Of a DNA stretch of 64,000 nt, positions 19,366 through 64,000 are shown in pieces (position 1 is the first letter of the stretch; each line of letters starts with the position of its first letter). Under the pieces are notes generated by a model. The model did no database searches, was not told where the DNA came from, and worked only from the letters and a program-made list of their open reading frames with translations. The stretch is taken from NCBI RefSeq assembly GCF_009914755.1, contig NC_060944.1; one strand, given 5' to 3'. The DNA is from the human T2T-CHM13v2.0 reference genome, Homo sapiens. A program made the position numbers and the translations under genes.

Positions 19366-19375
19366 CAAAAATTAT

Positions 19376-19680
19376 GGCCGGGCACGGTGGCTCATGCCTG
19401 TAATCCCAGCACTTTGGGAGGCCGAGGTGGGCGGATCACAAGGTCAGGAGATCGAGACCATCCTGGCTAACACGGTGAAACCCTGTCTCTACTAAAAATA
19501 CAAAAAATTAGCCAGGCAAGGTGGCGGGCGCCTGTAGTCCAAGCTACTCGGGAGGCTGAGGCAGGAGAATGGCATGAACCCGGCGGGGCAGAGCCTGCAG
19601 TAAGCCGAGATGGCACCACTACACTCCAGCCTGGGTGACAGCGAGACTCCATCTCAAAAAAAATAAAAGAAAAAAGAAAA
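19376..19680 (+). mobile_element. AluY (AluYe-like), inserted at the 3' TSD of the preceding Alu
   Basis: GGCAAGGTGGCGGGC, GAGCCTGCAG and GACAGCGAGAC diagnostics. TSD aaaagaaaaaggcaaaaatt. Confidence 0.95.
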
Positions 19681-19689
19681 AGGCAAAAA

Positions 19690-20680
19690 TTCAAACAGCT
19701 AAACAGAAACTGGACAAAAGAGTTGAACCAGCCCTTCACAGAAGGGGAAATGTGAAGGAATGGCCAACAAACACATGAAGAGGGTCTCAGCCTAACAGGA
19801 TGAGGTACCACGTGACACCCACCAGACTGGCAAAAATCCCACAACCCAAGAAATGCAAGGGTTGGGGAGAATGGAGAGCAACAAGAACACTCAGCCACTG
19901 CTAAGAAAGGTTGTGAACTTTTGTTGTTGTTGTTATGCTTCCATATGAAAGGCTGTGTGTTGTGGGTTATGAGGAAAATTACATTTCTTAACTGGGATGA
20001 AATTTTAAAAATTGAAAGCTACTGACCAGAAGAAACTTGCATTTGTGTACAAAAGAAATGCCCAAGAACGTTCTAGCAACACAGTCCTAAGGGCCCAACC
20101 TGCCCAAACCCTCATCCACAGGAAAATGAAGACATTTCCCACGTTCCCCTCATACCACGGGCGATCACGCAGCAATGAAAATGAACCATGTCAGTGTGGA
20201 TGGGTCTCAGGAAGAGAATGCAGGACAAAAATAGACATCGAGCAAATGCAAATGCTCAGACCCAATGCAGCATAGGAGCAGCCACACAGGAGAATTTCTT
20301 CACATCCAAGTTCAAAACTACAGCCGAGGCAACAGAGCAAGACCCTGTCTCAAAAAGACAACAGAAAGTTCAAACACTAAATGGCATATTGTTTAGGGAT
20401 GTACACATACGTGGTGAAAGAAACGTGCTATGAAGAAAAGTACGGGATTAATAAAGACTAAAGTGGAAAGTGATTCCCTCTGCAGAAGGGAAGGGACTGG
20501 GATTCGGGAGGGGCCGCCAGGGAACATCCACAGTTATGTCTCTTCAGATTCTGTTCCCTAAACTTGGTGGAGGTCCTGTGTGTCCAGTGTGTCGATGTTC
20601 TTTATACCTTGCCCATATTGTACAAATGCTTTTTTCTATTTAATATTTAGAAGACAGTTATACACAAGATGCATTAAATA
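19690..20680 (+). mobile_element. Old L1M LINE 3' fragment
   Basis: ggccaacaaacacatgaag...atgaggtaccac...accagactggcaaaaat, followed by degenerate L1M 3'UTR-like sequence. Confidence 0.6.
20322..20366 (+). mobile_element. Severely 5'-truncated Alu
   Basis: ggcaacagagcaagaccctgtctcaaaaa flanked by an aagttcaaa direct repeat. Confidence 0.7.
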
Positions 20681-43849: not shown

Positions 43850-44140
43850 GCCTCAGCTCAAATGTCACCTCCTCAGAGAAGCCCTCCCCCTTGGCCCTAT
43901 TTAAGTAGCCCCCACCAGAGCCTCAGTCAGCGACACGCACCCTTCATTTCCTTCTTGGCGCTGACCCCTACCTGCAAGTGCCTCGTCATTTGCGGTTGGC
44001 ATCTGCACTGTCCGTCTCCACCAGCACTTAGGCTCCGTGAGGACAGACGCACGTCGCCTTGTGCCCTGGTGAATCCCAAATCCCTGCCCTGAGCGCAGTG
44101 CCTGGCACAGAACAGACACAGGCAATGAGTGCTGCTGAAA
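43850..44140 (+). mobile_element. L2 LINE 3' fragment
   Basis: ctcagctcaaatgtcacctcctcagagaagcc...gcagtgcctggcacag. Confidence 0.7.
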
Positions 44141-45345
44141 GTTCCCCATGGAGCCAGTGGTGATCTGTCCAGGCTCTACAGCCCTCCCGCTAAACGTGTT
44201 CAGAGACGGGGACGCTGGGGCCATCCTCCTTGCTCCACTCCTGGTGAAGAGCCCTCAGACCCATAAGATGGGCTTGTCCATATCACCTTCTCAGGTGAGC
44301 CTCATACATAAGCAGGTTCAGTGGGTTAACCAAGCCTACATCTTTAACCCACGTGATAACCACAGTACCAGGTTTCTGCCATCAAATCTTTTCTATCCTC
44401 AGTCCTGCCTTGGGAATTCAGACTCACCCAGAATTCAGAGTTTCACAGACTCAGAAGAGAATGTGATGCTAGATTGTTCTGAAATGTTTGGTTTTAAAGC
44501 AAGATCAAATGATTACATTTGTGATCTGAAATCATTTGATTGTATCAAGCCATATCCCCTTCCAAATTATTTTCTTTAAATTCTCCCCAGAACGGGGAAC
44601 AGTATTAATTGTTTCCAATGAAAAGACTGCCCCTTTCATCAAAGCCATGAGCTTTATCTGCTGTTTTTGAATATAACGCTGACTTAGTAAAAGTGATTGT
44701 AAATAGCAGGTCTTCTTTGTGCATTTTGTGCTTCCAAATGTGCTAGTTGGAATAAAGAAGTGAAAAGTTTAAAAATCCTCTCTTGTAAATGTTTGGAAAT
44801 TGCACTAGAGTTATTTCTTGCTCTTTGAGGGGAGAGGTCACCCTGCAAATGTACAGTCACACCTGTTCGGCTCCCCCGGGTTTTGAATGTCACTAAACCC
44901 CCACTTCCCCCCACCTTGGCAGATCAGACTCTGTGAAGGACGCTCACTGTCTGTGCGACCTCACACCAGGTACAGGGACCAGGGGAAAGAGGCAAGTCTG
45001 GCTTGTGGGACAGTCCTGCAAGGCCACTTTTCTGGTAGGGAGGTGACACCTGCAAAGGAACCTCTCATTTCTCCCAGCTCCAGCCAGTTTCAACAACAGG
45101 TGGGGTTTTCTTTCCTCTCAATTATTATAGATTTCTTTTCTAATAATCAAAGTCATGATTCATTTTGAAAGTTTTTAAAAATAGAAGAAAACAAGATTTT
45201 AAATCACGCGTGATTGATTCCAACACCAAAGATAAGCAGTATTCGCATTTTGCTATGGAGTGCTCCTGTTAGACATACACACACATATGATCACACTTAC
45301 ACACTTATGCATTTTTGCTTCATTAAAATAGAATAAAGCTTTATG

Positions 45346-45645
45346 GGCCAGGTGCAGTGGTTCATGCCTGTAATCACAGCATTTTGGCAGCCAAGACAGG
45401 CGGATCACTGAAGGTCAGGAGTTTGAGACCAGCTTGGACAACATGGTGAAACCCCAGCTCTACTAAAAATACAAAAAATAGCTGGATGTGGTGCATGTGC
45501 CTGTAATCTCAGCTACTCGGAAGGCTGAGGCAGGAGAATTGTTTGAACCCAGGAGGCGGAGGGTGCAGTGAGCCGAGATCTCACCATTGCACTCCAGCCT
45601 GCATAACAGAGTGAGACTCTGTCTCAAAAAAAAAAAAAAAAGAAG
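45346..45645 (+). mobile_element. AluS
   Basis: Full-length Alu with poly-A and TSD of about aagcttt/gagcttt. Confidence 0.95.
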
Positions 45646-45843
45646 AGCTTTGTTTACACTAAACAATATTTTGTGTCCATATTTACACATAGATAACAAC
45701 AGATCACTATCATTTTTGGTATGGGCATATGTAGATATAAGTATTACATGAATTTCCTACTTTTTATCCAGTTATGGTTATATCACCTATCAGTGATTTA
45801 ACTTCAGCCAAGACAGAAGTTTATCTCATAATAACCAAGACTG

Positions 45844-46161
<318 letters not shown>

Positions 46162-46335
46162 TCAGTCTAGGGTGGCGTTAGGGACTTTCATTTCCTTCCA
46201 GAGGACATTCTGCTATCCACAGGGTAGAAGCCTAATCCTCAAGGTTCAAGGTGACAAGAATAGCTCCAACCATCATACGCTTATTCCAGGAAGCAGGTCA
46301 AAGGATGGAACAACTAAGAAATGACATTAAAGATA

Positions 46336-46745
46336 TGTGTCAGTCCATCTGCGTTGCTATAAAGGAATACCTGAGGCTGGTTATTTATAGAAGAGAGGTT
46401 TAATTGGCTCACAGTTCTGCAGGCTGTACAAGCATGGCACCAGCATCTGCTCCTGGGGAGGCCTCAGGAAGCTTCCAATCATGGCAGAAGGTGAAAGGGA
46501 AGCAGGTACATCACATGGTGAGAGAAAGAGCAAGAGAGGGAGGAGGATGTGCCAACCCCTTTAAACAACCAGATCTCCCATAAACTCAGAGCAAGAATTC
46601 AGTCATTGCCATCGGGACGGCACCAAGCCATTGTCAAAGGGATCTGCCCACATCACCAAAACACCTCCCACCAGGCCCCACCTCCAACATCAGGGATCAC
46701 ATTTCAACATGAGATTTGGAGGGGACCAACATCCAAACCATAACA
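46336..46745 (-). mobile_element. MST (MSTA/B-like) MaLR solo LTR, specific to copy B
   Basis: tgtgtcagtccatctgcgttgctataaaggaatacctgaggctgg...catccaaaccataaca, with a 5-bp TSD agata/agaca. Confidence 0.92.
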
Positions 46746-48498
46746 AGACAGAAGTTATAGAAAGGGGTCTCCAAAAATACCACCCAACACTTTTATTGCC
46801 TCCCATTGGCCAGAACCTGGTCACATGGCCACAACTCACTGCAAGGAAGCCTGGGAAAATGTAGCCTGTGCCCACCCACCAGGAGAGGGGAGCACTTTTG
46901 CCAGGGTGCGGGACCACCAGCGGGCATTTATGCTTCCTACTTCTTTCTTCTTATAAAAATCCTTGAGATTCATCTTTGCATGTTTTTCTGACTATTTCCT
47001 AGGGATCAATGCCTATAAATGAAATTTGGGACCAAAAGTTACGCACTTTCATTGGCCAGTTGCAAAATTGCCCTCTAGAAAAGTTGTACCAACGAACTCA
47101 CCCAAGAGGTGGGGTTCTATTTCATGAAATGTTTCTCCACCCCACATTTCCTTTTAATCCACACCCTTTGGCCTTTATTAGGCTTAGACATCTCTTCAGA
47201 ATCCCTGCTTCCTACAACATAATCTTGGGATTTAATACATGTTTTTCATTCAGGTTATTATTAATATCAGATTTATCTAACTATGCGTGAACCCAGCCAC
47301 AGCCTTAGGGAAAGAGATGTATCTTTCAGTGCTGAAGAGAATAAAAATTAATAATCATCAGAGACTTTGAAACTGAAGTGGGCAGGGCAGGGTGGAAAGA
47401 ACAGATCTCATTCTACGAAGTGCATGGAGGGATATTCACAGAGCATGTAGTGCTGAGTACAGCGGCCCAGGCACCTGGGGACACCCAGAGAGCAGCCTTT
47501 CCTCAACAGAAAAGGAGTGAGCACCACAGAGAGCTGCAGAAAGGGAATCCCAGACAGGGGTAACAGTAGATGCAAAGGCCCCATGGCAGGCACCAACTCA
47601 TACAGGTTTGCCCAGAACTTTCCCAGTTTTAACACTAGAAATCCCATGTCCTAGAAAACTTCTGAGTCTCAGCCAAGCTGGGATGATTTGCCTGGAACTG
47701 CCCCTGTTATAAAACTGAGAGGTCTGTGCCCCACGACCCCCCTCAGTCCTGAGCAAGCTGAGACAGTGGATTGCCCTAGACTGGAGCAACGTGCATGACG
47801 GTGGGAAGAGCCAGTGACTCTCTTTCATGTCCTCTCTCCCCTCAACCTCAGGAGTCACCCAGGTGGGCACTGACATCCAGGATGAAAACTTCCCAGCATC
47901 CCTTGCAGCAAGCAGTGGCCACGTGACCAGGCAGTGGCCAATGCACATGAGGCCAGTGCACAGCAACTGCCATTAGAGGAAGGAAGATTTGTGTCCTCTT
48001 GTTCTCTTCTCCCCTCCCTGCTGGCTGGCAGTAGATAGGATGGACACTGTGGGGGAAGCTACACCCTAAGGAAGTCAAAGCAGCAAGATGGAAGTACCCT
48101 AAGACCCTGAAAAATGCACAGAGAAGAATCACCTGACTGGCTTGAACTTTCATGTGAAAGGAATGAACCTCTGTCTTAGTAAAGCCACCGTGATTCAGGG
48201 TCCTTGTCACATTCACTGAGGCTGTAACATAATTGTTAGAAAGAACAGGAGCGGGAGGGGGGATGGAGTCGGAGAGGCAGGCAGAGGTCAGATCACATGG
48301 GGCCTGTAGGCCAAGGCGGAGGAAGAAACAGGCAACATAGGACTCAAGGACCACACCTGCTCCCAGGCAAAGGGAGTTTGCTGTGGGTGCCCCTCCCTGT
48401 CTGTGTGTCCAGTGTGTGGCTATTATTTATACCTTGCCCATATTGTACAAATACTTTTTTCTATTCAATATTTAGAAGACATTACATTAAATAGCAAG

Positions 48499-48769
48499 AT
48501 GGCAGATGAACATCAGGAAGGAACATTAGGAACATCCACAGTGTTCCATCCAGGAACCTTCACCGTGGAAACCCTTGTGCTCATGGGCGTGGTCTCAAGA
48601 CACAGTCAGCTGTTGGGGATCAGAGGCCACACTCATCGTAGCAGAGAGGCAGGACCAACTGGGAGAGGGTCCTTCTGTGACACCTACTGCATCACCGGGC
48701 TGTGTGAAGTGACTCAGCTGCCAGAACTCACACAATATCATTCTACACCAAAACCTCATGGGAAAAATG
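48499..48769 (+). other. Exon-like ATG-to-splice-donor segment, copy B
   Basis: Paralog of 20686-20950 with two 3-bp indels and the same gtaagt donor. Confidence 0.3.
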
Positions 48770-49194
48770 GTAAGTTCTCAGTTTCTCCATTAATAGCAAC
48801 TCTCAGATTAATCTCTCCTCCATCACTTCTCCATGGAACAACTTTTTATAGCTTTCCTTGGGTCTATTTTTCCATTTATTTTTTGTTTTACTAACTGATG
48901 GAAAGATATATATTGTATGTGTGTGATTTTGTCTCTGTCAGCCAGGATAATCATAGTTTAATTCTTATTATTTTTATTACCAACATCCTTTCGTTTTTTT
49001 AAGCTTTTCAATTCCTAAGGGTATTAATCAAGATCTTTCTGTCTCATGAGACACAGAAAACAAATCCAAACTGTGTAAGAGGAAAAAGAATGCACTCATC
49101 ACTAGCATTGAGAAGTTCCCAAGTTTAGCTTGCTTGGGGTACAGCTACATCTACCATTTCCAGGGTCATCCTGTAACTCTCTCTACTTCCCCAA

Positions 49195-52100
49195 CTTTGG
49201 CTCCATGTTTAGCTCCACGACCCTCAGGCTTAAACAGCAGTACTGGCCCCTCCCCAGATCTCCAGCTCCCTGACCCTCAAACTCCAACTGCAGCACCAGC
49301 TCCGCCCCGGGTCTCCAGCTCCACAATCCTCAAACTACAACAGCAGCACCAGCTCCCCTGTGGATCTCCAGCTCAATGACTCTCAGACTTGGGAGGCGGC
49401 ACCGGCTCCCCACCAAGCCTCCAGCTCCACAACCTTCAAACTAGAACAGCAGCACCGGCTACCCCCTGGGTCTCCAGCTCCCTCAAAATTCAACTATAGC
49501 ACTGGCTCTTCCCCGAGCCACCAGCTCCACAACCCTCAACTTACACAGTGGTAGCACCAGCTCCTCCCTAGGTCTCCAGCTACACGACCGTCAAACTTGA
49601 ACTGCAACACCAGCTCCTCTTCGGCCTCCAGCTCCACAATCCTCCAACAACAACAGCAACACCGGCTCCTCCCTGAATCTCCAGCGCAACAACCCTCAGA
49701 CTTGAGAGGTAGCACCGACACCTTCCCCAAGGCTCCAGCTCCATGACCCTCAGATTTGAACAGCGGTAGCACCAGCTCCTGTCCAGGTCTCCAGCTTCAT
49801 GATCCTTAAACTAGAACAGCAGCACTGCCGCCTCCCTGGGTTTCCAGCTCCATGACCCTAAGACATGAATGAAAGAACTGGGTCACCCCAGGGCTCCAAC
49901 TCCAAGACCCACAGATTTGAACGGCAGCACCGGCTCTTCCTGGGATCTGCAGCTCCACAGCCTTCAAACTAGATCAGCAGCACCGGCTCCTCCCTGGGTC
50001 TCCAGCTACACAATCCTCAGACATGAACAATAGCACCGGCTCCTCCCTGGGTCTCCAGCTTCACTACCCTCAGACTAGAACAGCAACACTGGTTCCTCCC
50101 TGGGTCTCCAGCTCTACAATCCTCAGACATAAACAGCAGCACCACCGGCTCCTACCCTTGTCTCCACTTCCACGACCCTCAAACTACAACAGCAGTACCG
50201 GCCTCTCCCCAGGTCTCCACATCCATGACCCTCAAAATAGAATGGCATCATCGGATCCCTCCTGGGTCTCCAGCTCCCAAACCCTCAAACTTCAATTGAC
50301 ACACCGGATCCTCCCCACAGTTAAACAGCAGCACAGGCTGTTCCCAAAAGCTCCAGATCCATGATCCTCTGACTTAAATGGCGGTAGCACCGGCTCCTCC
50401 CCAGGTCTCCAGTTCCACAACCCTCAAACTACACAGCAGCACCGGCTCCTCCCCAGGTCCACAGCTCCACCACCCTCATACTAGACACCAAGACTACCTC
50501 CTCCCTGCTCTCCAGCTACACGACCCTCAGTCTTGAACAGCAGCAGCTCCTCTCTGTACCTCAAGCCCCACGACCCTCAGACTTGAACAAGAACAACACC
50601 ATCTCCCCCCAGGGCTCCAGCTCGGGGACCTACAGATTTAAACAGCAGCACCGGCTCTTCCTGTGATCTCCAGCTCCACTAACCTCAAACTAGAATAGCA
50701 GCACCGGCTCCTCTTTGGGTCTCCAGCTTCACTACTGTCAGGCTGGAACAGCAACACCGGTTCCTCCCTGGGTCTCCAGCTCAACGACTCTCAGATTTGA
50801 AAGGCAGCACCGGCTCCTCACAAAGTTTCTGGCTCCAAGGCCCTCAAACTAGAATAGCAGCAGCTGCTGCATCTTGGGTCTCCAGCTCCACAACCCTCAA
50901 AGTAGAAAAGCAGCCCTGGCTCCTCCCTGCCTCTCCAGCTCCTCAAGTCTGAGTGTTGTAGAGCTGGAGACGCAGGGAGGAGTCAGTGCTGCTGTTCTAG
51001 TTTGAGGGTCGTGGATCTGGAGACCCAGGGTGGAGCCGGTGCTGCTGTTCTAGTTTGAGGGTCATGGAGCTGGAAGACCCCGGGAGGAGCTGCTGCTGCT
51101 GTTCTAGTGTGAGGGTCATGGAGCTGGAGACCCGGGAAGGAGTCATTTGAACAGCAGCACTGGCCCCTCCCCAGGTCTCAGGCTCCACGACCCTCAGACT
51201 TAAAAAGCCGTAGTACGGGCTTCTCCCTGGGTCTCCAGCTCTACAACCCTCAGACATGAACAGCAGCACCGGCTCCTCCCCCTGTCTCCCGTTCCATGAC
51301 CCTCAAACTACAACAGCAGTACCAGCCTCTACCCAGGTCTCCAGATCCACGACCCTCAAAATAGAATGGCATCACCAGCTCCTCCCTGGGTCTCCAGCTC
51401 CCAAACCCTCAAACTTCAACTGACACAGCAGATCCTCCCCACAGTTAAACAGCAGCATGGGCTGTTCCCCAAAACTCCAGATCCCTCTGACTTAAATGGC
51501 GGTAGCACCAGCTCCTCCCCAGGTCTCCAGTTCCATGACCCTCAAACTACAACAGCAACACAGGCTCCTCCCTGAATCTCCAGCTCAACAACTCTCAGAC
51601 TTGAGAGGCAGCACCGGCAACTCCCCAAGGCTCCAGCTCCACCACCCTCAGATTTGAACAACCGTAGCACGACCTCCTGACCAGGTCTCCAGCTTCATGA
51701 TCCTTAAACTAGAACAGCAGCACCGCTGCCTCCCTGGGTTTCCAGCTCCACGACCTTAAGACACGAATGGCAGAACTGGCTCCCCACCAGGGTTCCAGCT
51801 TCGGGACCTATAGATTTAAATGACAGCACCGGCTCTTCCCAGGATCTCCAGCTCCACTCCCCTCAAACTAGAACAGCAGCATCAGCTCCTCCCTGGCTCT
51901 CCAGCTCCCAAACCCTCAAACTTCAACTGACACACAGGATCCTCCCCACAGTTAAACAGCAGCATGGGCTGTTCCCCAAAACTCCAGATCCACAACCTTC
52001 TGACTTAAATGGCGGTAGCACTGGTTCCTCCCTAGATCTCCAGTTCCATGATCCTCAAATTACACAGCAGCACTGGCTCCTCCACAGGTCTCCAGCTCCA

Positions 52101-52530
52101 CCACCATCACACTAGACACCAAGACTACCTCTGCCCCTCTCTCCAGCTACACGACCCTCAGACTTGAACACCAGCAGCAGCTCCTTCCTGTACCTCAAGC
52201 CCCATGACCTCGGATTTGAACAACAACAACACCAGCTCCTGCCTAGGGCTCCAGCTGCAGAACCCACAGATGTAAACGATGGCACCGGCTCTTCCCAGGA
52301 TCTCCAGCGCCACTACCCTCAAACTAAAACAGCAGCACCAGCTCCTTTCTGGTTCTCCAGTTCCATAACACTCAGGCATGAACAGCAGCACCCACTCCTC
52401 CTTCCGGCTCAAGATTCACTACCCTCAGACTAGTACAGCAAAACCGGTTCCTCCCTGGATCTCCAGCTAAATGACTCTCAGACTGGAAAGGCAGCACCAG
52501 CTCCTCCGTGGATCTCCGGCTCCACGACAC
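49195..52530 (+). repeat. SATR-like satellite array B, old degenerate ~53-bp layer
   Basis: Same monomer as array A with many substitutions. It has internal re-duplications, e.g. cctccccacagttaaacagcagca near 50310, 51434 and 51941. Confidence 0.85.
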
Positions 52531-55500
52531 TCAAAACAACACGGCTCCTCCCTGGGTCTGTACCTCCATGACCCTCAAACTACAACAACACTGCTCCTCC
52601 CTGGCTCTGCAGCTCCACCACCCTCAAACTAGAACAAGACTTCTCCTCCCCAGGGTGCCAGCTACCGAACCCTCAAATTACAACAACATTGCTCCTCCCT
52701 GGGTCTGTAGCTCCAGGACCCTCAGACCAGAACAAGACCTCTCCTCCCTGAGTCTCCAGCTTCCGGACCCTTGAATTACAACAACATTGCTCCTGCCTGG
52801 GTCTGCATCTCCACAACCCTCAAATTAAAACAAGATCTCTCCTCCCTGGGTCACCAGCTTCGTGACCCTCGAACTAAAACAACAATGCTCCTGCCTGGGT
52901 CTGCAGCTCCACGACCCTGAAACTAGAACAAGACTTCTCCACCCTGAGTCACCAGCTTCCTAACCCACGAACTACAGCAACATTGCTCCTGCCTGGGTCT
53001 GCAGCTCCATGAACATCAAACTAGAACAAGACTTCTCCTCCCTGGGTCGCCAGCCTTCTGACACTCAAACTAAAACAACAGTGCTCCTGCCTGGGTCTGC
53101 AGCTCCATGACCCTCAAACGAAAACAAGACCTCTCCTCCCTGGGTCGCCAGCTTCCTCACCCTCAAACTACAACCAAATGGCTCCTCCCTGGTTCGGAAG
53201 CTCCACGACCCTGAAATTCGAACAAGACTTCTCTTCCCCCGGTTGCCAGTTACCGGAACCTTGAATTATACCAAAATTGCTCCTCCGTGGGTCTGCAGCT
53301 CCACGACCCTCAGACCAGAACAAGACCTCGCCTCCCCTGGGTCGCCAGCTTCCTGACCCTCGAATTACAACCAAATTGCTCCTCCCTGGGTCGACAGCTC
53401 CACGACCCTCAAACTCGAACAAGACTTCTCCTCCCCGGGTTGCCTGCTACCGGACCCTTGAATTACAACAAAATTGCTCCTCCCTGGTCCGGCAGCTCCA
53501 CGATCTTCAAACTAGAACAAGACCTCTCCTCCCTGGGTCGCCAGTTTCCGGACCCACCAATTACAACCAAATTGCTCCTCCCTGGTTCGGCAGCTCCACA
53601 ACCCTCAAACTAGAACAAGACCTCTCCTCCCTGGGTCTCCAGCTTCCAGACCCTCGAATGACAACCAAATTGCTCCTCCCTGGGTCTGCAGCTCCACCAC
53701 CCTCAAACTAAAACAAGACCTCTCCTCCCTGGGTCACCAGCTTCCTGACCCTCGAACTACAACAAAATTGCTCCTCCCTGATCAGCAGCTCCAACAGCCT
53801 CAAACTCGAACAAGACTTCTCCTTCCCAGGTTGCCAGCTACCAGACCCTCGAATTACAACAACATTGCTCCTCCCTGGGTCTGCAGCTCCACGACCCTCA
53901 GACCAGAAGAAGACCTCTCCTCCCCTGGGTCGCCAGCTTCCTGACCCTCGAATTACAACCAAATTGCTCCTCCCTGGGTCGGCAGCTCCACGACCCTCAA
54001 ACTCCAACAACACTTCTCTTCCCTGGGTTGCCAGCTACCGGACCCTTGAATTACAACAAAATTGCTCCTCCCTGGGTCTGCAGCTCCACGACCCTCACAC
54101 CAGAACAAGACCTCTCCTCCCTGGGTCGCCAGCTTTCGGACCCTCCAATTACAACAACATTGCTCCTCTCTGGTTCGGCAGCTCCACGACCCTCAAACTA
54201 CAACAAGACCTCTCCTCCCTGGGTCTCCAGCTTCCAGACCCTCGAATTACAACAGAATTGCTCCTCCCTGGGTCTGCAGCTCTACGACCCTCAAACTAGA
54301 ACAAGACCTCTCCTCCCTGGGTCACCAGCTTCCGGACCCCAGAATTACAACAACATTGCTCCTGCCTGGGTCTGCAGTTCCACAACCCTCAAACTAAAAC
54401 AAGACCTCTCCTCCCTGGGTCGCCAGATTCCTGACGCACGAATTACAACAAAATTGCTCCTCCCTGGTCGGCACCTCCACGAGCCTCAAACTCGAACAAG
54501 ACTTCTCCTCCCCAGGTTGCCAGCTACCACACCCTCGAATTACAACAACATTGCTCCTCCCTGGGTATGTAGCTCCACGACCCTCAGACCAGAAGAAGAC
54601 ATCTCTTCCCTTGGTCACCAGCTTCCGGACCCCCCAATTACAACCAAATTGCGCCTCCCTGGTTCGGCAGCTCCACGACCCTCAAACTAGAACAAGACCT
54701 CTCCTCCCTGGGTAGCCAGCTTCCGGACCCTCGAATTACAACAGCATTGCTCCTCCCTAGTTCGGCAGCTCCACGACCCTCAAACTAGAACAAGACCTCT
54801 CCTCCCTGGGTCTCCAGCTTCCAGACCCTCGAATTACAACCAAATTGCTCCTCCCTGGGTCTGCAGCTCCACCACCCTCAAACTAAAAGAAGACCTCTCC
54901 TCCCTGGGTCACCAGCTTCCTGACCCTCGAACTACAACAAAATTGCTCCTCCCTGATCAGCAGCTCCACCAGCCTCAAACTCGAACAAGACTTCTCCTTC
55001 CCAGGTTGCCAGCTACCAGACCCTCGAATTACAACAATATTGCTCCTCCCTGGGTCTGCAGCTCCATGACCCTCAGACCAGAAGAAGACCTCTCCTCCCT
55101 GGGTCGCCAGCTTCCTGACCCTCGAATTACAACCAAATTGCTCCTCCCTGGGTCGGCAGCTCCACGACCCTCAAACTCGAACAAGACTTCTCCTACCCGG
55201 GTTGCCAGCTACCGGACCCTTGAATTACAACAAAATTGCTCCTCCCTGGGTCTGCAGCTCCACGACCCTCATACCAGAACAAGACCTCTCCTCCCTGCGT
55301 CGCCAGCTTCCTGACCCTCGAATTACAACCAAATTGCTCCTCCCTGGGTCGGCAGCTCTACGACCCTCAAACTAGAACAAGACCTCTCCTCCCTGGGTCG
55401 CCAGCTTCCGGACCCTTGAATTACAACAACATAGCTCCTGCCTGGGTCTGCAGTTCCGCAACCCTCAAACTAAAACAAGACCTCTCCTCCCTGGGACACC

Positions 55501-58500
55501 AGCTTCCGGACCCTCCAATTACAACCAAATTGCTCCTCCCTGGTTCGGCAGCTCCATGACCCTCAAACCAGAACAAGACCTCTCCTCCCTGGGTCTCCAG
55601 CTTCCAGACCCTCGAATTACAACCAAATTCCTCCTCCCTGGGTCTGCAGCTCCACCACCCTCAAACTAAAACAAGACCTCTCCTCCCTGGGTCACCAGCT
55701 TCCTGACCCTCGAACTACAACAAAATTGCTCCTCCCTGATCAGCAGCTCCACCAGCCTCAAACTCGAACAAGACTTCTCCTTCCCAGGTTGCCAGCTACC
55801 AGACCCTCGAATTACAACAACATTGCTCCTCCCTGGGTCTGCAGCTCCACGACCCTCATACCAGAACAAGACCTCTCCTCCCCTGGGTCGCCAGCTTCCT
55901 GTCCCTCGAATTACAACCAAATTGCTCCTCCCTGATCAGCAGCTCCAGCAGCCTCAAACTCGAACAAGACTTCTCCTCCCGAGGTTGCCAGCTACCAGAC
56001 CCTCGAATTACAACAACATTGCTCCTCAGTGGGTCTGCAGCTCCACGACCCTCAGACCAGAAGAAGACCTCTCCTCCCCTGGGTCGCCAGCTTCCTGACC
56101 CTCGAATTACAACCAAATTGCTCCTCCCTGGGTCGGCAGCTCCACGACCCTCAAACTCCAACAACACTTCTCTTCCCTGGGTTGCCAGCTACTGGACCCT
56201 TGAATTACAACAAAATTGCTCCTCCCTGGGTCTGCAGCTCCACGACCCTCAGACCAGAACAAGACCTCTCCTCCCTGGGTCGCCAGCTTCCTGACCCTCG
56301 AATTACAACCAAATTGCTCCTCCCTGGGTCTGCAGCTCCACGACCCTCAGACCAGAACAAGACCTCTCTCCTCCCTGGGTCTCCAGCTTCCGGACCCTCA
56401 AATTACAACCAAATTGCTCCTCCCTGGGTCGGCAGCTTCACGACCCTCAAACTCGAACAAGACTTCTCCTACCCGGGTTGCCAGCTACCGGACCCTTGAA
56501 TTACAACAAAATTGCTCCTCCCTGGGTCTGCAGCTCCACGACCCTCATACCAGAACAAGACCTCTCCTCCCCTGGGTCGCCAGCTTCCTGACCCTCGAAT
56601 TAGAACCAAATTGCTCCTCCCTGGTTCGGCAGCTCCACGACCCTCAAACTACAACAAGACCTCTCCTCCCTGGGTCTCCAGCTTCCAGACCCTCGAATTA
56701 CAACAGAATTGCTCCTCCCTGGGTCTGCAGCTCTACGACCCTCAAACTAGAACAAGACCTCTCCTCCCGGGGTCTCCAGCTTCCGGACCCTTGAATTACA
56801 ACAACATTGCTCCTGCCTGGGTCTGCAGTTCCACAACCCTCAAACTAAAACAAGACCTCTCCTCCCTGGGTCGCCAGATTCCTGACCCACGAACTACAAC
56901 AAAATTGCTCGTCCCTGGTCGGCAGCTCCACGAGCCTCAAACTCGAAGAAGACTTCTCCTCCCCAGGTTGCCAGCTACCACACCCTCGAATTACAACAAC
57001 ATTGCTCCTCCCTGGGTATGTAGCTCCACGACCCTCAGACCAGAACAAGACCTCTCCTCCCTGGGTCGCCAGCTTCCTGACCCTCGAATTACAACCAAAT
57101 TGCTCCTCCCTGGGTCGGCAGCTCCACGACCCTCAGACGAGAACAAGACCTCTCTCCTCCCTGGGTCTCCAGCTTCCGGACCCTCAAATTACAACCAAAT
57201 TGCTCCTCCCTGGGTCGGCAGCTCCACGACCCTCAAACTCCAACAACACTTCTCTTCCCTGGGTTGCCAGCTACCGGACCCTTGAATTACAACAAAATTG
57301 CTCCTCCCTGGGTCTGCAGCTCCACGACCCTCACACCAGAACAAGACCTCTCCTCCCTGGGTCGCCAGCTTCCGGACCCTCGAATTACAACAGCATTGCT
57401 CCTCCCTGGTTCGGCAGCTCCACGACCCTCAAACTAGAACAAGACCTCTCCTCCCTGGGTCTCCAGCTTCCAGACCCTCGAATTACAACCAAATTGCTCC
57501 TCCCTGGGTCTGCAGCTCCACCACCCTCAAACTAAAACAAGACCTCTCCTTCCTGGGTCACCAGCTTCCTGACCCTCGAACTACAACAAAATTGCTCCTC
57601 CCTGATCAGCAGCTCCACCAGCCTCAAACTCGAACAAGACTTCTCCTCCCCAGGTTGCCAGCTACCAGACCCTCGAATTACAACAACATTGCTCCTCCCT
57701 GGGTCTGCAGCTCCACGACCCTCAGACCAGAAGAAGACCTCTCCTCCCCTTGGTTGCCAGCTTCCTGACCCTCGAATTACAACCAAATTGCTCCTCTCTG
57801 GGTCGGCAGCTCCACGACCCTCAAACTCCAACAACACTTCTCTTCCCTGGGTTGCCAGCTACCGGACCCTTGAATTACAACAAAATTGCTCCTCCCTGGG
57901 TCTGCAGCTCCATGACCCTCACACCAGAACAAGACCTCTCCTCCCTGGGTCGCCAGATTTCGGACCCTCCAATTACAACAACATTGCTCCTCCCTGGTTC
58001 GGCAGCTCCACGACCCTCAAACTACAACAAGACCTCTCCTCCCTGGGTCTCCAGCTTCCAGACCCTCGGATTACAACAGAATTGCTCCTCCCTGGGTCTG
58101 CAGCTCTACGACCCTCAAACTAGAACAAGACCTCTCCTCCCTGTGTCTCCAGCTTCCGGACCTTTGAATTACAACAACATTGCTCCTGCCTGGGTCTGCA
58201 GTTCCACAACCCTCAAACTAAAACAAGACCTCTCCTCCCTGGGTCGCCAGATTCCTGACCCACGAACTACAACAAAATTGCTCCTCCCTGGTCGGCAGCT
58301 CCACGAGCCTCAGACTCGAACAAGACTTCTCCTCCCCAGGTTGCCAGCTACCACACCCTCGAATTACAACAACATTGCTCCTCCCTGGGTATGTAGCTCC
58401 ACGACCATCAGACCAGAAGAAGACATCTCCTCCCTGGGTCACCAGCTTCCGGACCCTCCAATTACAACCAAATTGCGCCTCCCTGGTTCGGCAGCTCCAC

Positions 58501-61500
58501 GACCCTCAAACTCGAACAAGACTTCTCCTACCCGGGTTGCCAGCTACCGGACCCTTGAATTACAACAAAATTGCTCCTCCCTGGGTCTGCAGCTCCACGA
58601 CCCTCATACCAGAACAAGACCTCTCCTCCCTGCGTCGCCAGCTTCCTGACCCTCGAATTACAACCAAATTGCTCCTCCATGGGTCGGCAGCTCTACGACC
58701 CTCAAACTAGAACAAGACCTCTCCTCCCTGGGTCGCCAGCTTCCGGACCCTTGAATTACAACAACATAGCTCCTGCCTGGGTCTGCAGTTCCGCAACCCT
58801 CAAACTAAAACAAGACCTCTCCTCCCTGGGTCACCAGCTTCCGGACCCTCCAATTACAACCAAATTGCTCCTCCCTGGTTCGGCAGCTCCATGACCCTCA
58901 AACCAGAACAAGACCTCTCCTCCCTGGGTCTCCAGCTTCCAGACCCTCGAATTACAACCAAATTGCTCCTCCCTGGGTCTGCAGCTCCACCACCCTCAAA
59001 CTAAAACAAGACCTCTCCTCCCTGGGTCACCAGCTTCCTGACCCTCGAACTACAAAAAAATTGCTCCTCCCTGATCAGCAGCTCCACCAGCCTCAAACTC
59101 GAACAAGACTTCTCCTCCCCAGGTTGCCAGCTACCAGACCCTCGAATTACAACAACATTGCTCCTCCCTGGGTCTGCAGCTCCACGACCCTCAGACCAGA
59201 AGAAGACCTCTCCTCACCTGGGTCGCCAGCTTCCTGACCCTCGAATTACAACCAAATTGCTCCTCCCTGGGTCGGCAGCTCCACGACCCTCAAACTCCAA
59301 CAACACTTCTCTTCCCTGGGTTGCCAGCTACCGGACCCTTGAATTACAACAAAATTGCTCCTCCCTGGGTCTGCAGCTCCACGACCCTCACACCAGAACA
59401 AGACCTCTCCTCCCTGGGTCGCCAGCTTTCGGACCCTCCAATTACAACAACATTGCTCCTCCCTGGTTCGGCAGCTCCACGACCCTCAAACTACAACAAG
59501 ACCTCTCCTCCCTCGGTCTCCAGCTTCCAGACCCTCGAATTACAACAGAATTGCTCCTCCCTGGGTCTGCAGCTCTACGACCCTCAAACTAGAACAAGAC
59601 CTCTCCTCCCTGGGTCTCCAGCTTCCGGACTCTCCAATTACAACCAAATTGCTCCTCCCTGGGTCGGCAGCTCCACGACCCTCAAACTAGAACAAGACCT
59701 CTCCTCCCTGGGTCACCAGCTTCCGGACCCTTGAATTACAACAACATTGCTCCTGCCTGGGTCTGCAGTTCCACAACCCTCAAACTAAAACAAGACCTCT
59801 CCTCCCTGGGTCGCCAGATTCCTGACCCACGAACTACAACAAAATTGCTCCTCCCTGGTCGGCAGCTCCACGAGCCACAAACTCGAACAAGACTTCTCCT
59901 CCCCAGGTTGCCAGCTACCACACCCTCGAATTACAACAACATTGCTCCTCCCTGGATATGTAGCTCCACGACCCTCAGACCAGAACAAGACATCTCCTCC
60001 CTGGGTCACCAGCTTCCGGACCCTCCAATTACAACCAAATTGCGCCTCTCTGGTTCGGCAGCTCCACGACCCTCAAACTAGAACAAGACCTCTCCTCCCT
60101 GGGTCGCCAGCTTCCGGACCCTCCAATTACAACAGCATTGCTCCTCCCTGGTTCGGCAGCTCCACGACCCTCAAACTAGAACAAGACCTCTCCTCCCTGG
60201 GTCTCCAGCTTCCAGACCCTCGAATTACAACAATATTGCTCCTCCCTGGGTCTGCACCTCCAACAACCTCAAACTAAAACAAGACCTCTCCTCCCTGGGT
60301 CACCAGCTTCCTGACCCTCGAACTACAACAAAATTGCTCCTCCCTGATCAGCAGCTCCACCAGCCTAAAACTCGAACAAGACTTCTCCTCCCCAGGTTGC
60401 CAGCTACCAGACCCTCGAATTACAACAACATTGCTCCTCCCTGGGTCTGCAGCTCCACGACCCTCAGACCAGAAGAAGACCTCTCCTCCCCTGGGTCGCC
60501 AGCTTCCTGACCCTCGAATTACAACCAAATTGCTCCTCCCTGGGTCGGCAGCTCCACGACCCTCAAACTCCAACAACACTTCTCTTCCCTGGGTTGCCAG
60601 CTACTGGACCCTTGAATTACAACAAAATTGCTCCTCCCTGGGTCTGCAGCTCCACGACCCTCACACCAGAACAAGACCTCTCCTCCCTGGGTCGCCAGCT
60701 TTCGGACCCTCCAATTACAACAACATTGCTCCTCCCTGGTTCCGCAGCTCTACGACCCTCAAATTAGAACAAGACCTCTCCTCCCGGGGTCTCCAGCTTC
60801 CGGACCCTTGAATTACAACAACATTGCTCCTGCCTGGGTCTGCAGTTCCACAACCCTCAAACTAAAACAAGACCTCTCCTCCCTGGGTCGCCAGATTCCT
60901 GACCCACGAACTACAACAAAATTGCTCGTCCCTGGTCGGCAACTCCACGAGCCTCAAACTCGAAGAAGACTTCTCCTCCCCAGGTTGCCAGCTACCACAC
61001 CCTCGAATTACAACAACATTGCTCCTCCCTGGGTATGTAGCTCCATGACCCTCAGACCAGAACAAGACCTCTCCTCCCTGGGTCGCCAGCTTCCTGACCC
61101 TCGAATTACAACCAAATTGCTCCTCCCTGGGTCTGCAGCTCCACGACCCTCAGACGAGAACAAGACCTCTCTCCTCCCTGGGTCTCCAGCTTCCGGACCC
61201 TCAAATTACAACCAAACTGCTCCTCCCTGGGTCGGCAGATCCACGACCCTCAAACTCGAACAAGACTTCTCCTACCCGGGTTGCCAGCTACCGGACCCTT
61301 GAATTACAACAAAATTGCTCCTCCCTGGGTCTGCAGCTCCACGACCCTCATACCAGAACAAGACCTCTCCTCACCTGGGTCGCCAGCTTCCTGACCCTCG
61401 AATTAGAACCAAATTGCTCCTCCCTGGGTCGGCAGCTCCACGACCCTCAAACTCCAAGAACACTTCTCTTCCCTGGGTTGCCAGCTACCGGACCCTTGAA

Positions 61501-64000
61501 TTACAACAAAATTGCTCCTCCCTGGGTCTGCAGCTCCACGACCCTCACACCAGAACAAGACCTCTCCTCCCTGGGTCGCCAGCTTTCGGACCCTCCAATT
61601 ACAACAACATTGCTCCTCCCTGGTTCGGCAGCTCCACGACCCTCAAACTACAACAAGACCTCTCCTCCCTGGGTCTCCAGCTTCCAGACCCTCGAATTAC
61701 AACAGAATTGCTCCTCCCTGGGTCTTCAGCTCTACGACCCTAAAACTAGAACAAGACCTCTCCTCCCTGGGTCTCCAGCTTCCGGACCCTCCAATTACAA
61801 CCAAATTGCTCCTCCCTGGGTCGGCAGCTCCACGACCCTCAAACTAGAACAAGACCTCTCCTCCCTGGGTCACCAGCTTCCGGACCCTTGAATTACAACA
61901 ACATTGCTCCTGCCTGGGTCTGCAGTTCCACAACCCTCAAACTAAAGCAAGACCTCTCCTCCCTGGGTCGCCAGATTCCTGACCCACAAACTACAACAAA
62001 ATTGCTCCTCCCTGGTCGGCAGCTCCACGAGCCTCAAACTCGAACAAGACTTCTCCTCCCCAGGTTGCCAGCTACCACACCCTCGAATTACAACAACATT
62101 GCTCCTCCCTGGGTATGTAGCTCCACGACACTCAGACCAGAACAAGACATCTCCTCCCTGGGTCACCAGCTTCCGGACCCTCCAATTACAACCAAATTGC
62201 GCCTCCCTGGTTCGGCAGCTCCACGACCCTCAAACTAGAACAAGACCTCTCCTCCCTCGGTCGCCAGCTTCCGGACCCTCGAATTACAACAGCATTGCTC
62301 CTCCCTGGTTCGGCAGCTCCACGACCCTCAAACTAGAACAAGACCTCTCCTCCCTGGGTCTCCAGCTTCCAGACCCTCGAATTACAACCAAATTGCTCCT
62401 CCCTGGGTCTGCAGCTCCACCACCCTCAAACTAAGACAAGACCTCTCCTTCCTGGGTCACCAGCTTCCTGACCCTCGAACTACAACAAAATTGCTCCTCC
62501 CTGATCAGCAGCTCCACCAGCCTCAAACTCGAACAAGACTTCTACTTCCCAGGTTGCCAGCTACCAGACCCTCGAATTACAACAACATTGCTCCTCCCTG
62601 GGTCTGCAGCTCCACGACCCTCAGACCAGAAGAAGACCTCTCCTCCCCTGGGTCGCCAGCTTCCTGACCCTCGAATTACAACCAAATTGCTCCTCCCTGG
62701 GTCGGCAGCTCCATGACCCTCAAACTCCAACAACACTTCTCTTCCCTGGTTTGCCAGCTACCGGACCCTTGAATTACAACAAAATTGCTCCTCCCTGGGT
62801 CTGCAGCTCCACGACCCTCACACCAGAACAAGACCTCTCCTCCCTGGGTCGCCAGCTTTCCGACCCTCCAATTACAACAACATTGCTCCTCCCTGGTTCG
62901 GCAGCTCCACGACCCTCAAACTAGAACAAGACCTCTCCTCCCTCGGTCTCCAGCTTCCAGACCCTCGAATTACAACAATATTGCTCCTCCCTGGGTCTGC
63001 AGCTCCATGACCCTCAGACCAGAAGAAGACCTCTCCTCCCTGGGTCGCCAGCTTCCTGACCCTCGAATTACAACCAAATTGCTCCTCCCTGGGTCGGCAG
63101 CTCCACGACCCTCAAACTAGAACAAGACCTCTCCTCCCTGGGTCGCCAGCTTCCAGACCCTTGAATTACAACAACATAGCTCCTGCCTGGGTCTGCAGTT
63201 CCGCAACCCTCAAACTAAAACAAGACCTCTCCTCCCTGGGTCACCAGCTTCCGGACCCTCCAATTACAACCAAATTGCTCCTCCCTGGTTCGGCAGCTCC
63301 ATGACCCTCAAACCAGAACAAGACCTCTCCTCCCTGGGTCTCCAGCTTCCAGACCCTCGAATTACAACCAAATTGCTCCTCCCTGGGTCTGCAGCTCCAC
63401 CACCCTCAAACTAAAACAAGACCTCTCCTCCCTGGGTCACCAGCTTCCTGACCCTCGAACTACAACAAAATTGCTCCTCCCTGATCAGCAGCTCCAGCAG
63501 CCTCAAACTCGAACAAGACTTCTCCTTCCCAGGTTGCCAGCTACCAGACCCTCGAATTACAACAACATTGCTCCTCCCTGGGTCTGCAGCTCCACGACCC
63601 TCAGACCAGAAGAAGACCTCTCCTCACCTGGGTCGCCAGCTTCCTGACCCTCGAATTACAACCAAATTGCTCCTCCCTGGGTCGGCAGCTCCACGACCCT
63701 CAAACTCCAACAACACTTCTCTTCCCTGGGTTGCCAGCTACCGGACCCTTGAATTACAACAAAATTGCTCCTCCCTGGGTCTGCAGCTCCACGACCCTCA
63801 CACCAGAACAAGGCCTCTCCTCCCTGGGTCGCCAGCTTTCGGACCCTCCAATTAAAACAACATTGCTCCTCCCTGGTTCGGCAGCTCCACGACCCTCAAA
63901 CTACAACAAGACCTCTCCTCCCTCGGTCTCCAGCTTCCAGACCCTCGAATTACAACAGAATTGCTCCTCCCTGGGTCTGCAGCTCTACGACCCTCAAACT
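52530..64000 (+). repeat. SATR-like satellite array B, homogeneous 98-bp dimer (49+49) with higher-order structure; truncated by the window end
   Basis: Alternating 49-bp units gaccctcaaactagaacaagacctctcctccctgggtcgccagcttcct and gaccctcgaattacaaccaaattgctcctccctgggtctgcagctccac. Variant markers recur at multiples of about 98 bp. Confidence 0.93.

What the first reader, a model, noticed from the sequence alone, without database searches (positions are those of the whole stretch)
49195..64000. Layered satellite: a degenerate 53-bp repeat switches to a homogeneous 98-bp (49+49) dimer array
Seen: up to about 52.5 kb the units are ~53 bp and heavily diverged. Over 52530-52650 the unit shortens by ~4 bp and splits into two strictly alternating types (...tagaacaagacctctcc... 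and ...ttacaaccaaattgctcc...). Units become more uniform from about 53.2 kb and run for more than 11 kb to the window end. Paralogous array A never makes this transition. Inference: a young expansion nucleated inside an old minisatellite, giving the same monomeric-flank to A/B dimer to higher-order layering known from alpha satellite, but in euchromatic-looking sequence. The unexpanded paralog 28 kb away serves as a built-in control.
Basis: partly seen in the sequence, partly recalled or inferred. Interest (0 to 1): 0.8.

Follow-up and report, generated by a model that had tools for sequence, protein, structure and literature searches.

The report
Known D20S16 satellite, layered array
This stretch is the already described human chromosome-20 satellite D20S16 (a 98-bp repeat made of two 49-bp halves), and its old-edge, young-core layering is real but is the ordinary pattern of tandem-repeat evolution, shared with sister copies elsewhere in the genome.

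Summary
Window 49210-52516 is a degenerate 53-bp array. After two transitional units (52517, 52561), two 49-bp types alternate to the window end and 1.9 kb beyond: 269 of 272 transitions alternate, and all of them do inside the window from 52610.

It is not new. This is the D20S16 satellite, whose 98-bp unit of two 49-bp subunits was reported by Bowden 1995, as cited by Hu et al. 2025 (PMC12287470). Array B matches their transcribed element chr20#5 and array A their chr20#4.

The 49-bp units form one clade against all 53-bp units. The core, 53.48-65.44 kb, is an irregular higher-order repeat of about 11-13 dimers whose copies are 95-97% alike.

The 53-to-98 switch did not arise at this locus. 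The same architecture, with the same junction units and homologous low-copy flanks, is present in chr20#1, #2, #3 and a chr7 copy; a partial chr8 copy keeps only dimers and the tail. Each array then amplified its own dimer variants.

Array A is a poor control: it is an older paralog, its upstream flank is about 85-88% identical and it lacks the downstream flank.

Interest is low.

The parts
44000..49209 (+). Upstream low-copy flank, part of a segmental duplication shared with the other D20S16 loci. It holds exon 1 of lncRNA LOC105372647 (47533-48769, hub annotation).
   Evidence: 96.6% identity over 5218 bp to the chr20#1 flank, 95.2% to #3 and 95.0% to chr7 (the last two cut by the locus ends), and 83.7-88.6% to the flank of array A; the last 310 bp give 12 matches, of which 11 lie next to arrays that searches place; the twelfth (chr3:0.849 Mb) lies about 0.3 kb from a repeat hit.
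49210..50942 (+). Old layer, part 1: degenerate 53-bp units (type O). Exon 2 of LOC105372647 starts at 49213, inside the first unit.
   Evidence: Mean pairwise identity of the exact 53-mers is 0.694 (n=33). The units are collinear one by one with chr20#1. The acceptor tttag|C at 49213 is shown.
50961..51142 (-). Inverted block of about 3.4 53-bp units inside the old layer.
   Evidence: One search gives a reverse-complement consensus with 87% matches. TRF finds inverted blocks in #1, #3 and chr7. The forward/inverted junction is shared with array A.
51148..52516 (+). Old layer, part 2: degenerate 53-bp units up to the switch.
   Evidence: The best internal copy of 318-bp windows is only 0.68 at the median.
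52517..52609 (+). Transitional units: one 44-bp unit and one 49-bp intermediate (X-like 5' half, Y-like 3' half).
   Evidence: The same 44-bp unit sits at the same place in chr20#1, chr20#2 and chr7.
52610..53480 (+). Edge dimers: alternating X and Y 49-bp units that are diverged and not part of the recent amplification.
   Evidence: 2% of 52500-53499 is covered by internal duplicates at or above 95% identity; the first 7 dimers are singletons.
53481..64000 (+). Homogenised core of the 98-bp (X+Y) array. It is an irregular higher-order repeat of about 11-13 dimers and continues to about 65440 beyond the window. Dimers end at 65886 and seven 53-bp units follow to 66260.
   Evidence: blocks of 0.8-1.8 kb recur at 95-97% identity at lags of 10, 13, 15, 22, 35, 39 and 45 dimers; 13 recurrent dimer types with the recurring order CGBAEDC(M)FHBJ(D); the median best-copy identity of 490-bp windows is 0.973.
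21413..26557 (+). Array A, probably chr20#4 of Hu et al. It has 53-bp units only, an inverted block at 25954-26103, and about 8 more forward units at 26133-26557. Exon 2 of LOC105372645 starts at 21416, inside the first unit.
   Evidence: 87 copies, 71% matches; 0 of 93 units typed Y; no collinearity with B, median best identity 81%; the splice donor and acceptor are paralogous to those of LOC105372647; shared inversion junction.

Best explanation
**What it is.** Window 49210 to the window end, continuing to 66260 in window coordinates, is the most distal array of the known human satellite/VNTR family D20S16. It is probably element chr20#5 of Hu et al. 2025. It is non-coding.

**Build.**
- About 55 old 53-bp units that contain a small inverted block.
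- Two transitional units.
- About 135 dimers of two 49-bp unit types (X+Y = 98 bp).
- Seven old 53-bp units.

**Origin (inferred).** This composite build arose once. Shortened units appeared inside a 53-bp array, two neighbouring variants became fixed as a dimer, and the whole locus with its flanks was then copied by segmental duplication to chr20#1, #2, #3, chr7 and, in part, chr8.

**Later history (inferred from pattern, not shown).** Each array afterwards grew and turned over on its own by out-of-register recombination or replication slippage. This homogenises the middle of an array into multi-dimer blocks and leaves the edges diverged and still orthologous between copies.

**Transcription.** RefSeq models and published RNA-seq show that a promoter and first exon in the unique upstream flank splice into the first repeat unit. 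The array is therefore transcribed as the tail of a lncRNA.
For: **Identity**
- Hu et al. (PMC12287470; Results read) place five D20S16 clusters at CHM13 chr20:49.571-50.286 Mb. My first array starts at 49,571,528 and the last ends at 50,286,260.
- Their unit counts are 96 (#4), 332 (#5) and 483 (#2).
  - Mine are 93 forward units plus about 3 inverted for #4, and 337 for #5.
  - For #2 I get 499 anchor intervals, 484 of them typed as repeat units.
- Their motif types are 53-bp CAGCAGCACC-G and 49-bp CAA-A--G. These match my consensus sequences.
- They cite Bowden 1995 for the 98-bp unit of two 49-bp subunits.

**Shared architecture**
- The type strings read O...-(XY)n-O7 in B (135 dimers), #1 (92), #2 (about 210), chr7 (10) and chr8 (5, without the proximal O layer). 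They read O...-(XY)23-O2 in #3, cut by my range.
- The junction units are shared.
- The flanks are homologous.
- The 53-bp units of B are collinear one by one with #1. The first 37 units (indices 0-36) take the same index wherever both units could be scored, and the median best identity is 94%.

**Independent amplification**
- 96 of 100 B dimers have their nearest neighbour in B, and 77 of 82 #1 dimers have theirs in #1. Nearest-neighbour identity is 98.3% and 98.7%.
- 31 of 37 recurrent dimer types are private to one array. The types shared between B and #1 lie mostly at the distal edge.

**Edge versus core:**

**Single origin of the 49-bp units:** one change on the monomer tree.

**Splice sites:**
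Against: - Hu et al. quote '87-90% identity' for the two 49-bp subunits. I find 37/49 (75.5%) between the consensus sequences and 69.3% between units. 87.5% is instead the identity between whole dimers. I could not read Bowden 1995.
- No Dfam or RepeatMasker library was available, so the match to the curated D20S16 consensus rests on coordinates, unit counts and motifs in the paper, not on an alignment.
- The recombination mechanism is inferred from pattern only.
- The 13-mer PRDM9-type hotspot motif is absent from the arrays.
- CpG observed/expected is the same in edge dimers (0.455) and core (0.46), so CpG decay does not separate the two dimer layers.
- The monomer tree rests on 53 columns with weak support: 11 of 298 branches are starred.
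Confidence: 0.88

Rival explanations
1. One reading: a young 98-bp expansion nucleated in place inside an old minisatellite at this locus alone, with array A as the unexpanded paralog.
For: - The dimers are embedded between 53-bp units on both sides.
- Transitional units lie at 52517-52609.
- The core is more uniform than the edges.
- This array's dimer variants are largely private: 96 of 100 nearest neighbours lie within B.
Against: - The proximal 44-bp unit is also present in chr20#1, #2 and chr7. The distal 48-bp Y unit is also present in #1 and #2. The seven-unit tail is also present in #1, #2, chr7 and chr8.
- The flanks are 91-99% identical.
- Core copies differ by about 1-5%, so the expansion is not very young. 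Array chr20#2 has 100% identical 4.7-kb copies and is the young one.
- Array A lacks the downstream flank and diverged earlier: its upstream flank is 85-88% identical.
Confidence: 0.08
2. The repeat is a piece of an ERVL long terminal repeat (MLT2B4) that was amplified in place, so the array is a transposon-derived satellite and its flanks are the rest of the LTR.
For: Hu et al. report that MLT2B4 positions 272-368 resemble D20S16 and that RepeatMasker labels short stretches of the arrays as MLT2B4.
Against: - The 310 bp just upstream and the 340 bp just downstream of the array are low-copy: 12 and 16 matches in the whole genome.
- Most of these matches lie beside arrays placed.
- The matches are not dispersed in hundreds of places as LTR remnants would be.
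- The tool skips very common words, so this is a lower bound.
- An ancient origin of the monomer from such an LTR is not excluded.
Confidence: 0.1
3. An assembly artefact or a coding tandem repeat.
For: Long arrays are hard to assemble. Open frames of up to 299 codons exist on the + strand.
Against: - Copies within the array differ (median best-copy identity 97.3%) and carry an ordered pattern of variants.
- The assembly is telomere-to-telomere.
- The periods 49 and 98 are not multiples of 3, and 30 of the 34 listed frames start at TTG or GTG.
- RefSeq annotates only lncRNAs here.
Confidence: 0.02

Closest known systems
D20S16 satellite / VNTR of human 20q13 (Bowden et al. 1995, Genomics 25:394, seen only as cited; Hu, Mizuguchi and Hashimoto 2025, PMC12287470)
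   Same: - Same chromosome interval.
- Same 98-bp unit made of two 49-bp subunits.
- Same 53-bp and 49-bp motif types.
- Matching unit counts for elements #2, #4 and #5.
- Transcribed elements #4 and #5 fit the two RefSeq lncRNAs that splice into arrays A and B.
   Different: The family membership is not in doubt. Four details are not mentioned in the parts of Hu et al. I read (Results and Discussion in full; a term search gave 0 for 'dimer' and 0 for 'higher-order'):
- chr20#5 is a composite, 53-bp layer to dimers to 53-bp tail.
- X and Y alternate strictly.
- The arrays carry array-specific higher-order blocks.
- The junctions are shared between paralogs.

Hu et al. file #5 whole under the 49-bp group.
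Alpha-satellite layering (diverged monomeric flanks around homogeneous higher-order repeat cores)
   Same: - Diverged units at the edges.
- A/B-type dimer alternation.
- Multi-unit blocks at 95-97% identity in the core.
- Variants specific to each array.
   Different: - The sequence and monomer length are unrelated (49/53 bp, not 171 bp).
- It lies on a chromosome arm, not at a centromere.
- It is only 17 kb long.
- The higher-order period is irregular.
- No centromere function is implied.
- It works like alpha satellite in its evolution but is not a member.
SATR1 / SATR2
   Same: Both are primate satellites annotated by RepeatMasker.
   Different: This could not be aligned because no Dfam library was available. 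The published annotation of these coordinates is D20S16, not SATR.

Membership tests
D20S16 satellite | Tandem 98-bp unit composed of two 49-bp subunits | tested here: met
   - period 98, 116.9 copies, 84% matches.
- two 49-mer clusters of 118 and 117.
- 269 of 272 transitions alternate.
D20S16 satellite | Subunits 87-90% identical (as quoted by Hu et al. from Bowden 1995) | tested here: not met
   - the consensus sequences agree at 37/49 (75.5%) and units of different type are 69.3% alike.
- whole dimers are 87.5% alike, so the quoted figure may refer to dimers.
- The primary paper is not held.
D20S16 satellite | Location in 20q12-q13.1, within the five clusters at CHM13 chr20:49.571-50.286 Mb | tested here: met
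   - The window is chr20:50,220,001-50,284,000 (hub).
- The arrays I mapped start at 49,571,528 and end at 50,286,260.
D20S16 satellite | Match to the curated Dfam/Repbase D20S16 consensus | not testable with these tools
   No repeat library is available. Identity rests on the published coordinates, unit counts and motifs.
D20S16 satellite | Length polymorphism between people (VNTR) | not testable with these tools
   Only one human assembly is held.
Alpha-satellite-type higher-order repeat array | Multi-monomer blocks far more alike than neighbouring monomers, with diverged array edges | tested here: met
   - adjacent dimers are 85.9% alike and nearest neighbours 98.3%.
- 89% of 52500-66300 lies in duplicates at or above 95% identity, and the edges are not covered.
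- a recurring order of 13 dimer types.
Alpha-satellite-type higher-order repeat array | 171-bp alphoid monomer, centromeric position | tested here: not met
   The monomers are 49 and 53 bp. The locus is at 50.2 Mb of a 66.2-Mb chromosome (one search gives the contig length).

The most novel reading that the evidence does not exclude
The D20S16 loci are a small family of segmental duplicates that inherited one and the same composite array (53-bp layer, X/Y dimers, 53-bp tail). Each then built its own higher-order repeat independently:
- an irregular block of about 12 dimers with copies 95-97% alike in this window;
- short triplets and longer blocks in chr20#1;
- a regular 4,689-bp block with 100% identical copies in chr20#2.

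If this has not been described, the family is a compact, fully sequenceable, replicated natural experiment on how higher-order repeats are born on chromosome arms. The orthologous edge units serve as fixed landmarks, and two members are transcribed in oocytes and early embryos.
Probability: 0.3. Interest if true: 0.35.

Novelty: already known. Interest (0 to 1): 0.18.

Why it matters
It matters little for discovery. The satellite, its 98-bp = 49+49 unit, its chromosome-20 clusters and its expression are all in print.

The added description could help people who study D20S16, for three reasons:
- Treating chr20#5 as a uniform '49-bp' element hides the fact that about 3.3 kb at its transcribed 5' end is the 53-bp type, like chr20#4. 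This may bear on why just these two elements are expressed.
- The shared junction units give landmarks for aligning arrays across apes and across people.
- Array chr20#2 has identical 4.7-kb copies and is a likely hotspot of copy-number change.

Tried and rejected
- **PRDM9-type hotspot motif.** I searched CCNCCNTNNCCNC, a motif recalled from memory, as a driver of unequal exchange. It gives 2 matches in the window, none in the arrays, against 5 expected. Rejected. The shorter CCTCCCT is frequent in the dimers (14.4 per kb), but that is simply part of the unit.
- **blastn self-comparison of the dimer array.** It returned nothing usable, so I replaced it with a diagonal scan.
- **Parity labels on the monomer tree.** They need 28 changes against a minimum of 59 in 200 shuffles. 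The count is inflated because the phase flips at the single X-X, so the alternation count is the better test.
- **CpG depletion as a clock.** The 53-bp layer scores 0.28 and the dimers 0.46, but edge and core dimers do not differ.
- **Coding reading.** Rejected.
- **Transposon-flank reading.** Not supported.
- **Bowden 1995.** It could not be read.
- **Table S1 of Hu et al. (element coordinates).** It is an image in the PDF and gave no text. Equating A with #4 and B with #5 therefore rests on order, unit counts and motif type.
- **Literature check.** A full-text search for D20S16 together with 'higher-order repeat' found 0 papers. The search for D20S16 alone found 23 papers, many of them about unrelated markers whose names begin with the same letters.


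Full report

Yes.

*Tandem Repeats Finder:*
- Degenerate 53-bp arrays run from 49211 to 51922 in several pieces with 65-72% matches.
- An inverted block lies at 50961-51142.
- A 106-bp row lies at 52311-52507.
- A single array then runs from 52500/52545 to the window end. It scores as period 49 (69% matches) and far better as period 98 (116.9 copies, 84% matches, no indels, score 16170).

*Other measures:*
- Autocorrelation agrees: lag 98 = 0.725, lag 196 = 0.648, lag 49 = 0.645.
- Both arrays are strongly C-rich on the + strand, with GC skew -0.35 to -0.47.

*Monomers:*
- Cutting the array at a conserved 17-mer gave 337 units between 49210 and 66260 in window coordinates, the last 2.3 kb taken from the next stretch of the chromosome.
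- The 235 units of exactly 49 bp split into two clusters of 118 and 117. Identity is 86.6% and 88.6% within a cluster and 69.3% between them. The two consensus sequences agree at 37 of 49 positions.
- The last 53-bp unit starts at 52464. A 44-bp unit follows at 52517, a 49-bp intermediate at 52561, and the two types alternate from 52610.
- 269 of 272 transitions alternate. The exceptions are the two at the transitional units and one X-X at 64465/64514, just outside the window.
- Array A (21413-26557) has 53-bp units only: 0 of 93 are typed Y.

**2. What is it?**

It is the D20S16 satellite.
- A full-text search for that name led to Hu, Mizuguchi and Hashimoto 2025 (PMC12287470). I read its Results and Discussion in full.
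- Citing Bowden et al. 1995, they describe D20S16 as tandem 98-bp units, each made of two 49-bp subunits, at 20q12-q13.1.
- They map five clusters in T2T-CHM13 between chr20:49.571 and 50.286 Mb.

My mapping agrees with theirs:

|---|---|---|
| First array start / last array end | 49.571 / 50.286 Mb | 49,571,528 / 50,286,260 |
| Units in #4 | 96 | 93 forward plus about 3 inverted |
| Units in #5 | 332 | 337 |
| Units in #2 | 483 | 499 anchor intervals, 484 typed as repeat units |

- Their motif classes (53-bp CAGCAGCACC-G; 49-bp CAA-A--G) are what my consensus sequences show.
- Array A is therefore probably their chr20#4 and array B their chr20#5. These are the only two elements they found transcribed in oocytes and cleavage embryos.
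- Their coordinate table is an image and could not be read, so this equation rests on order, counts and motif type.
- One discrepancy remains. The quoted '87-90% identity' of the two subunits does not fit my 75.5% (consensus) or 69.3% (units). It does fit the identity between whole dimers, 87.5%. Bowden 1995 is not held.

**3. The same layering is found in the sister copies.**

- A search of the window's own assembly with two dimers and with a Y-specific 17-mer found further dimer arrays. They lie at chr20:49.574-49.584 Mb (#1), chr20:49.644-49.664 Mb on the minus strand (#2), chr20:49.893-49.895 Mb (#3), chr7:57.460 Mb and chr8:125.142 Mb.
- I fetched them and typed their units in the same way.
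- All read as a 53-bp layer, then X/Y dimers, then 53-bp units. Dimer counts are 135 (B), 92 (#1), about 210 (#2), 23 (#3), 10 (chr7) and 5 (chr8).
- The tail has seven units in B, #1, #2, chr7 and chr8. In #3 my range cut it after two.
- Junction units are the same. The 44-bp unit stands at the proximal junction in B, #1, #2 and chr7. A 48-bp Y unit followed by the same seven 53-bp units stands at the distal junction in B, #1 and #2.
- The old 53-bp units of B are orthologous one by one with #1. The first 37 units take the same index wherever both could be scored, with a median best identity of 94%. They are largely collinear with chr7 (92%) and partly with #3 (91%).

**4. The flanks are duplicated too.**

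- The 5.2 kb upstream of B is 96.6% identical to the flank of #1, 95.2% to #3 and 95.0% to chr7. The last two alignments are cut by the locus ends.
- The 3.3 kb downstream is 92.7% identical to #1, 91.0% to chr7 and 93.6% to #3.
- The 310 bp and 340 bp that touch the array have only 12 and 16 matches in the genome. Most lie beside arrays that I placed.
- Identity falls in steps (upstream / downstream):

| Copy | Upstream | Downstream |
|---|---|---|
| #1 and #2 | 96% | 99% |
| chr7 | 95% | 95% |
| #3 | 93% | 92% |
| chr6 | 85% | 88% |
| Array A | 85% | no match |
| Copies on chr2, 3, 5, 8 | about 78-84% | about 79-81% |

- The flanks are not a dispersed transposon. This speaks against the array having been born in place inside an MLT2B4 LTR, although Hu et al. 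note a resemblance of MLT2B4 positions 272-368 to the repeat unit.

**5. Order of events (inference).**

- Arrays A and B share the forward/inverted junction. The inversion inside the 53-bp layer is therefore older than their split.
- The chr6 copy keeps both flanks and has 0 of 68 units typed Y. In the zone before its tail it carries about 14 units of 50 bp of the CAACACCGG type. This is a plausible intermediate between the 53-bp and 49-bp units.
- All units of B's dimer zone sit on one side of a single branch against all 53-bp units of A and B (423 units, 53 columns, weak support overall).
- The likely order is:
  1. a 53-bp array with an inversion;
  2. the split of the A and chr6 lineages;
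  3. shortening of units, and fixation of an X+Y dimer between the proximal 53-bp layer and the seven-unit 53-bp tail;
  4. duplication of the whole locus to #3, chr7, #1/#2 and B;
  5. separate growth of each array.
- From my recollection that human and macaque differ by roughly 6-7% at neutral sites, flank identities of 92-95% put step 3 near or before the ape-monkey split. This agrees with the report of Hu et al. that macaque has five shorter syntenic elements. None of this was tested on other species here.

**6. The third layer.**

- Inside B, adjacent dimers are only 85.9% alike, yet each dimer's nearest relative is 98.3% alike and lies in B for 96 of 100 exact-length dimers.
- A diagonal scan shows blocks of 0.8-1.8 kb recurring at 95-97% identity. 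The lags are irregular (10, 13, 15, 22, 35, 39, 45 ... dimers). These blocks cover 89% of 52500-66300, but only 2% of the first kilobase and 32% of the last 0.8 kb.
- Clustering the 135 dimers at 6% distance gives 13 recurrent types. Their order repeats as CGBAEDC(M)FHBJ(D) with variants. The first 7 and last 4 dimers are singletons.
- A joint clustering of 265 dimers from five arrays gives 37 recurrent types, 31 of them private to one array. The types that B shares with #1 lie mostly at the distal edge.
- Array #1 has its own blocks.
- Array #2 has a regular 4,689-bp period (autocorrelation 0.909) with 100% identical copies.
- B's median best-copy identity is 97.3%. It is therefore moderately young, not the youngest, and 'homogeneous' holds only relative to the 53-bp layers, whose best internal copies are about 67% alike.

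**7. How it most likely works.**

- The pattern is what out-of-register exchange or slippage within a tandem array produces. The middle is repeatedly duplicated and deleted in blocks. The ends rarely take part, so they diverge and stay orthologous between paralogs.
- This rests on established models of tandem-repeat evolution, which I recall rather than cite, and on the pattern alone. No exchange event was observed.
- A hotspot-motif explanation was tested and rejected.

*Transcription:*
- The two RefSeq lncRNAs have paralogous splice donors: ...GGGAAAAATG|gtaagtt at 20950 and 48769.
- Their acceptors, tttag|C at 21416 and 49213, lie in the first repeat unit of arrays A and B.
- This fits the published expression of #4 and #5.
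- The annotated exon 2 of LOC105372647 ends at 49441, inside the 53-bp layer. How far transcripts run into the dimers I cannot say.

**8. Verdict.**

It is wrong about the place and time of origin and about array A as a control.
- The object is a named, published satellite.
- The composite build of #5, the strict alternation, the shared junction units and the array-specific higher-order blocks do not appear in the parts of Hu et al. that I read. A term search there gave 0 for 'dimer' and 0 for 'higher-order'.
- No held paper combines D20S16 with 'higher-order repeat'.
- A 2025 preprint on telomere contacts calls D20S16 poorly understood. I saw only its passages.
- This is a modest descriptive increment, not a discovery.

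Noticed in passing
L016-L019 (chr20:49,636,001-49,676,000; array at about 49,643,700-49,664,400, minus strand): The largest D20S16 array (chr20#2, about 210 dimers, 20.8 kb) is an inverted paralog of chr20#1. It carries a regular 4,689-bp higher-order period whose copies are 100% identical in 490-bp windows. That points to very recent amplification and probably to copy-number variation.
   Followed up: partly
window 20950/21416 and 48769/49213: The lncRNAs LOC105372645 and LOC105372647 are paralogs. Both have the same donor (...GGGAAAAATG|gtaagtt) and the same acceptor (tttag|C), and the acceptor lies in the first unit of arrays A and B. The upstream flanks of chr20#1 and #2 are 96% identical, yet those elements are reported silent.
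   Followed up: partly
L020 (chr6:151,250,001-151,257,000), about 4050-4710: The chr6 family member keeps both flanks, has no Y-type unit, and carries a run of about 14 units of 50 bp between its 53-bp layers. This is a possible intermediate on the way from 53 to 49 bp.
   Followed up: partly
window 25920-26103 and 50905-51086: Arrays A and B share the exact junction between forward and inverted 53-bp units (CTCCAGCTCCTCAAGTCTGAG). The small inversion therefore predates their duplication. TRF finds inverted blocks in #1, #3 and chr7 as well.
   Followed up: yes
window 49210-64000 and 21413-25957, minus strand: Each unit carries CCCTCA (TGAGGG on the other strand) at 6-9 per kb, against 0.6 per kb elsewhere in the window. 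TGACCC/CGACCC (GGGTCA/GGGTCG) is also enriched. From memory, these resemble a variant telomere hexamer and a nuclear-receptor half-site. That might relate to the telomere contacts of D20S16 reported in preprint 10.1101/2025.10.09.681516, of which I saw passages only. Speculative.
   Followed up: no
PMC12287470, main text versus supplement: The main text places chr20#5 in 'the 50-bp group (Fig. S6)', while the legend of Fig. S6 lists it in the 49-bp group. My typing supports 49 bp for the dimer zone and 53 bp for about 60 flanking units.
   Followed up: yes
window 15385-15519 and 19053-19691: A (TGGA)n microsatellite with 33.8 copies, and a 321-bp two-copy repeat whose consensus looks like two adjacent Alu elements. 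Both are ordinary.
   Followed up: no
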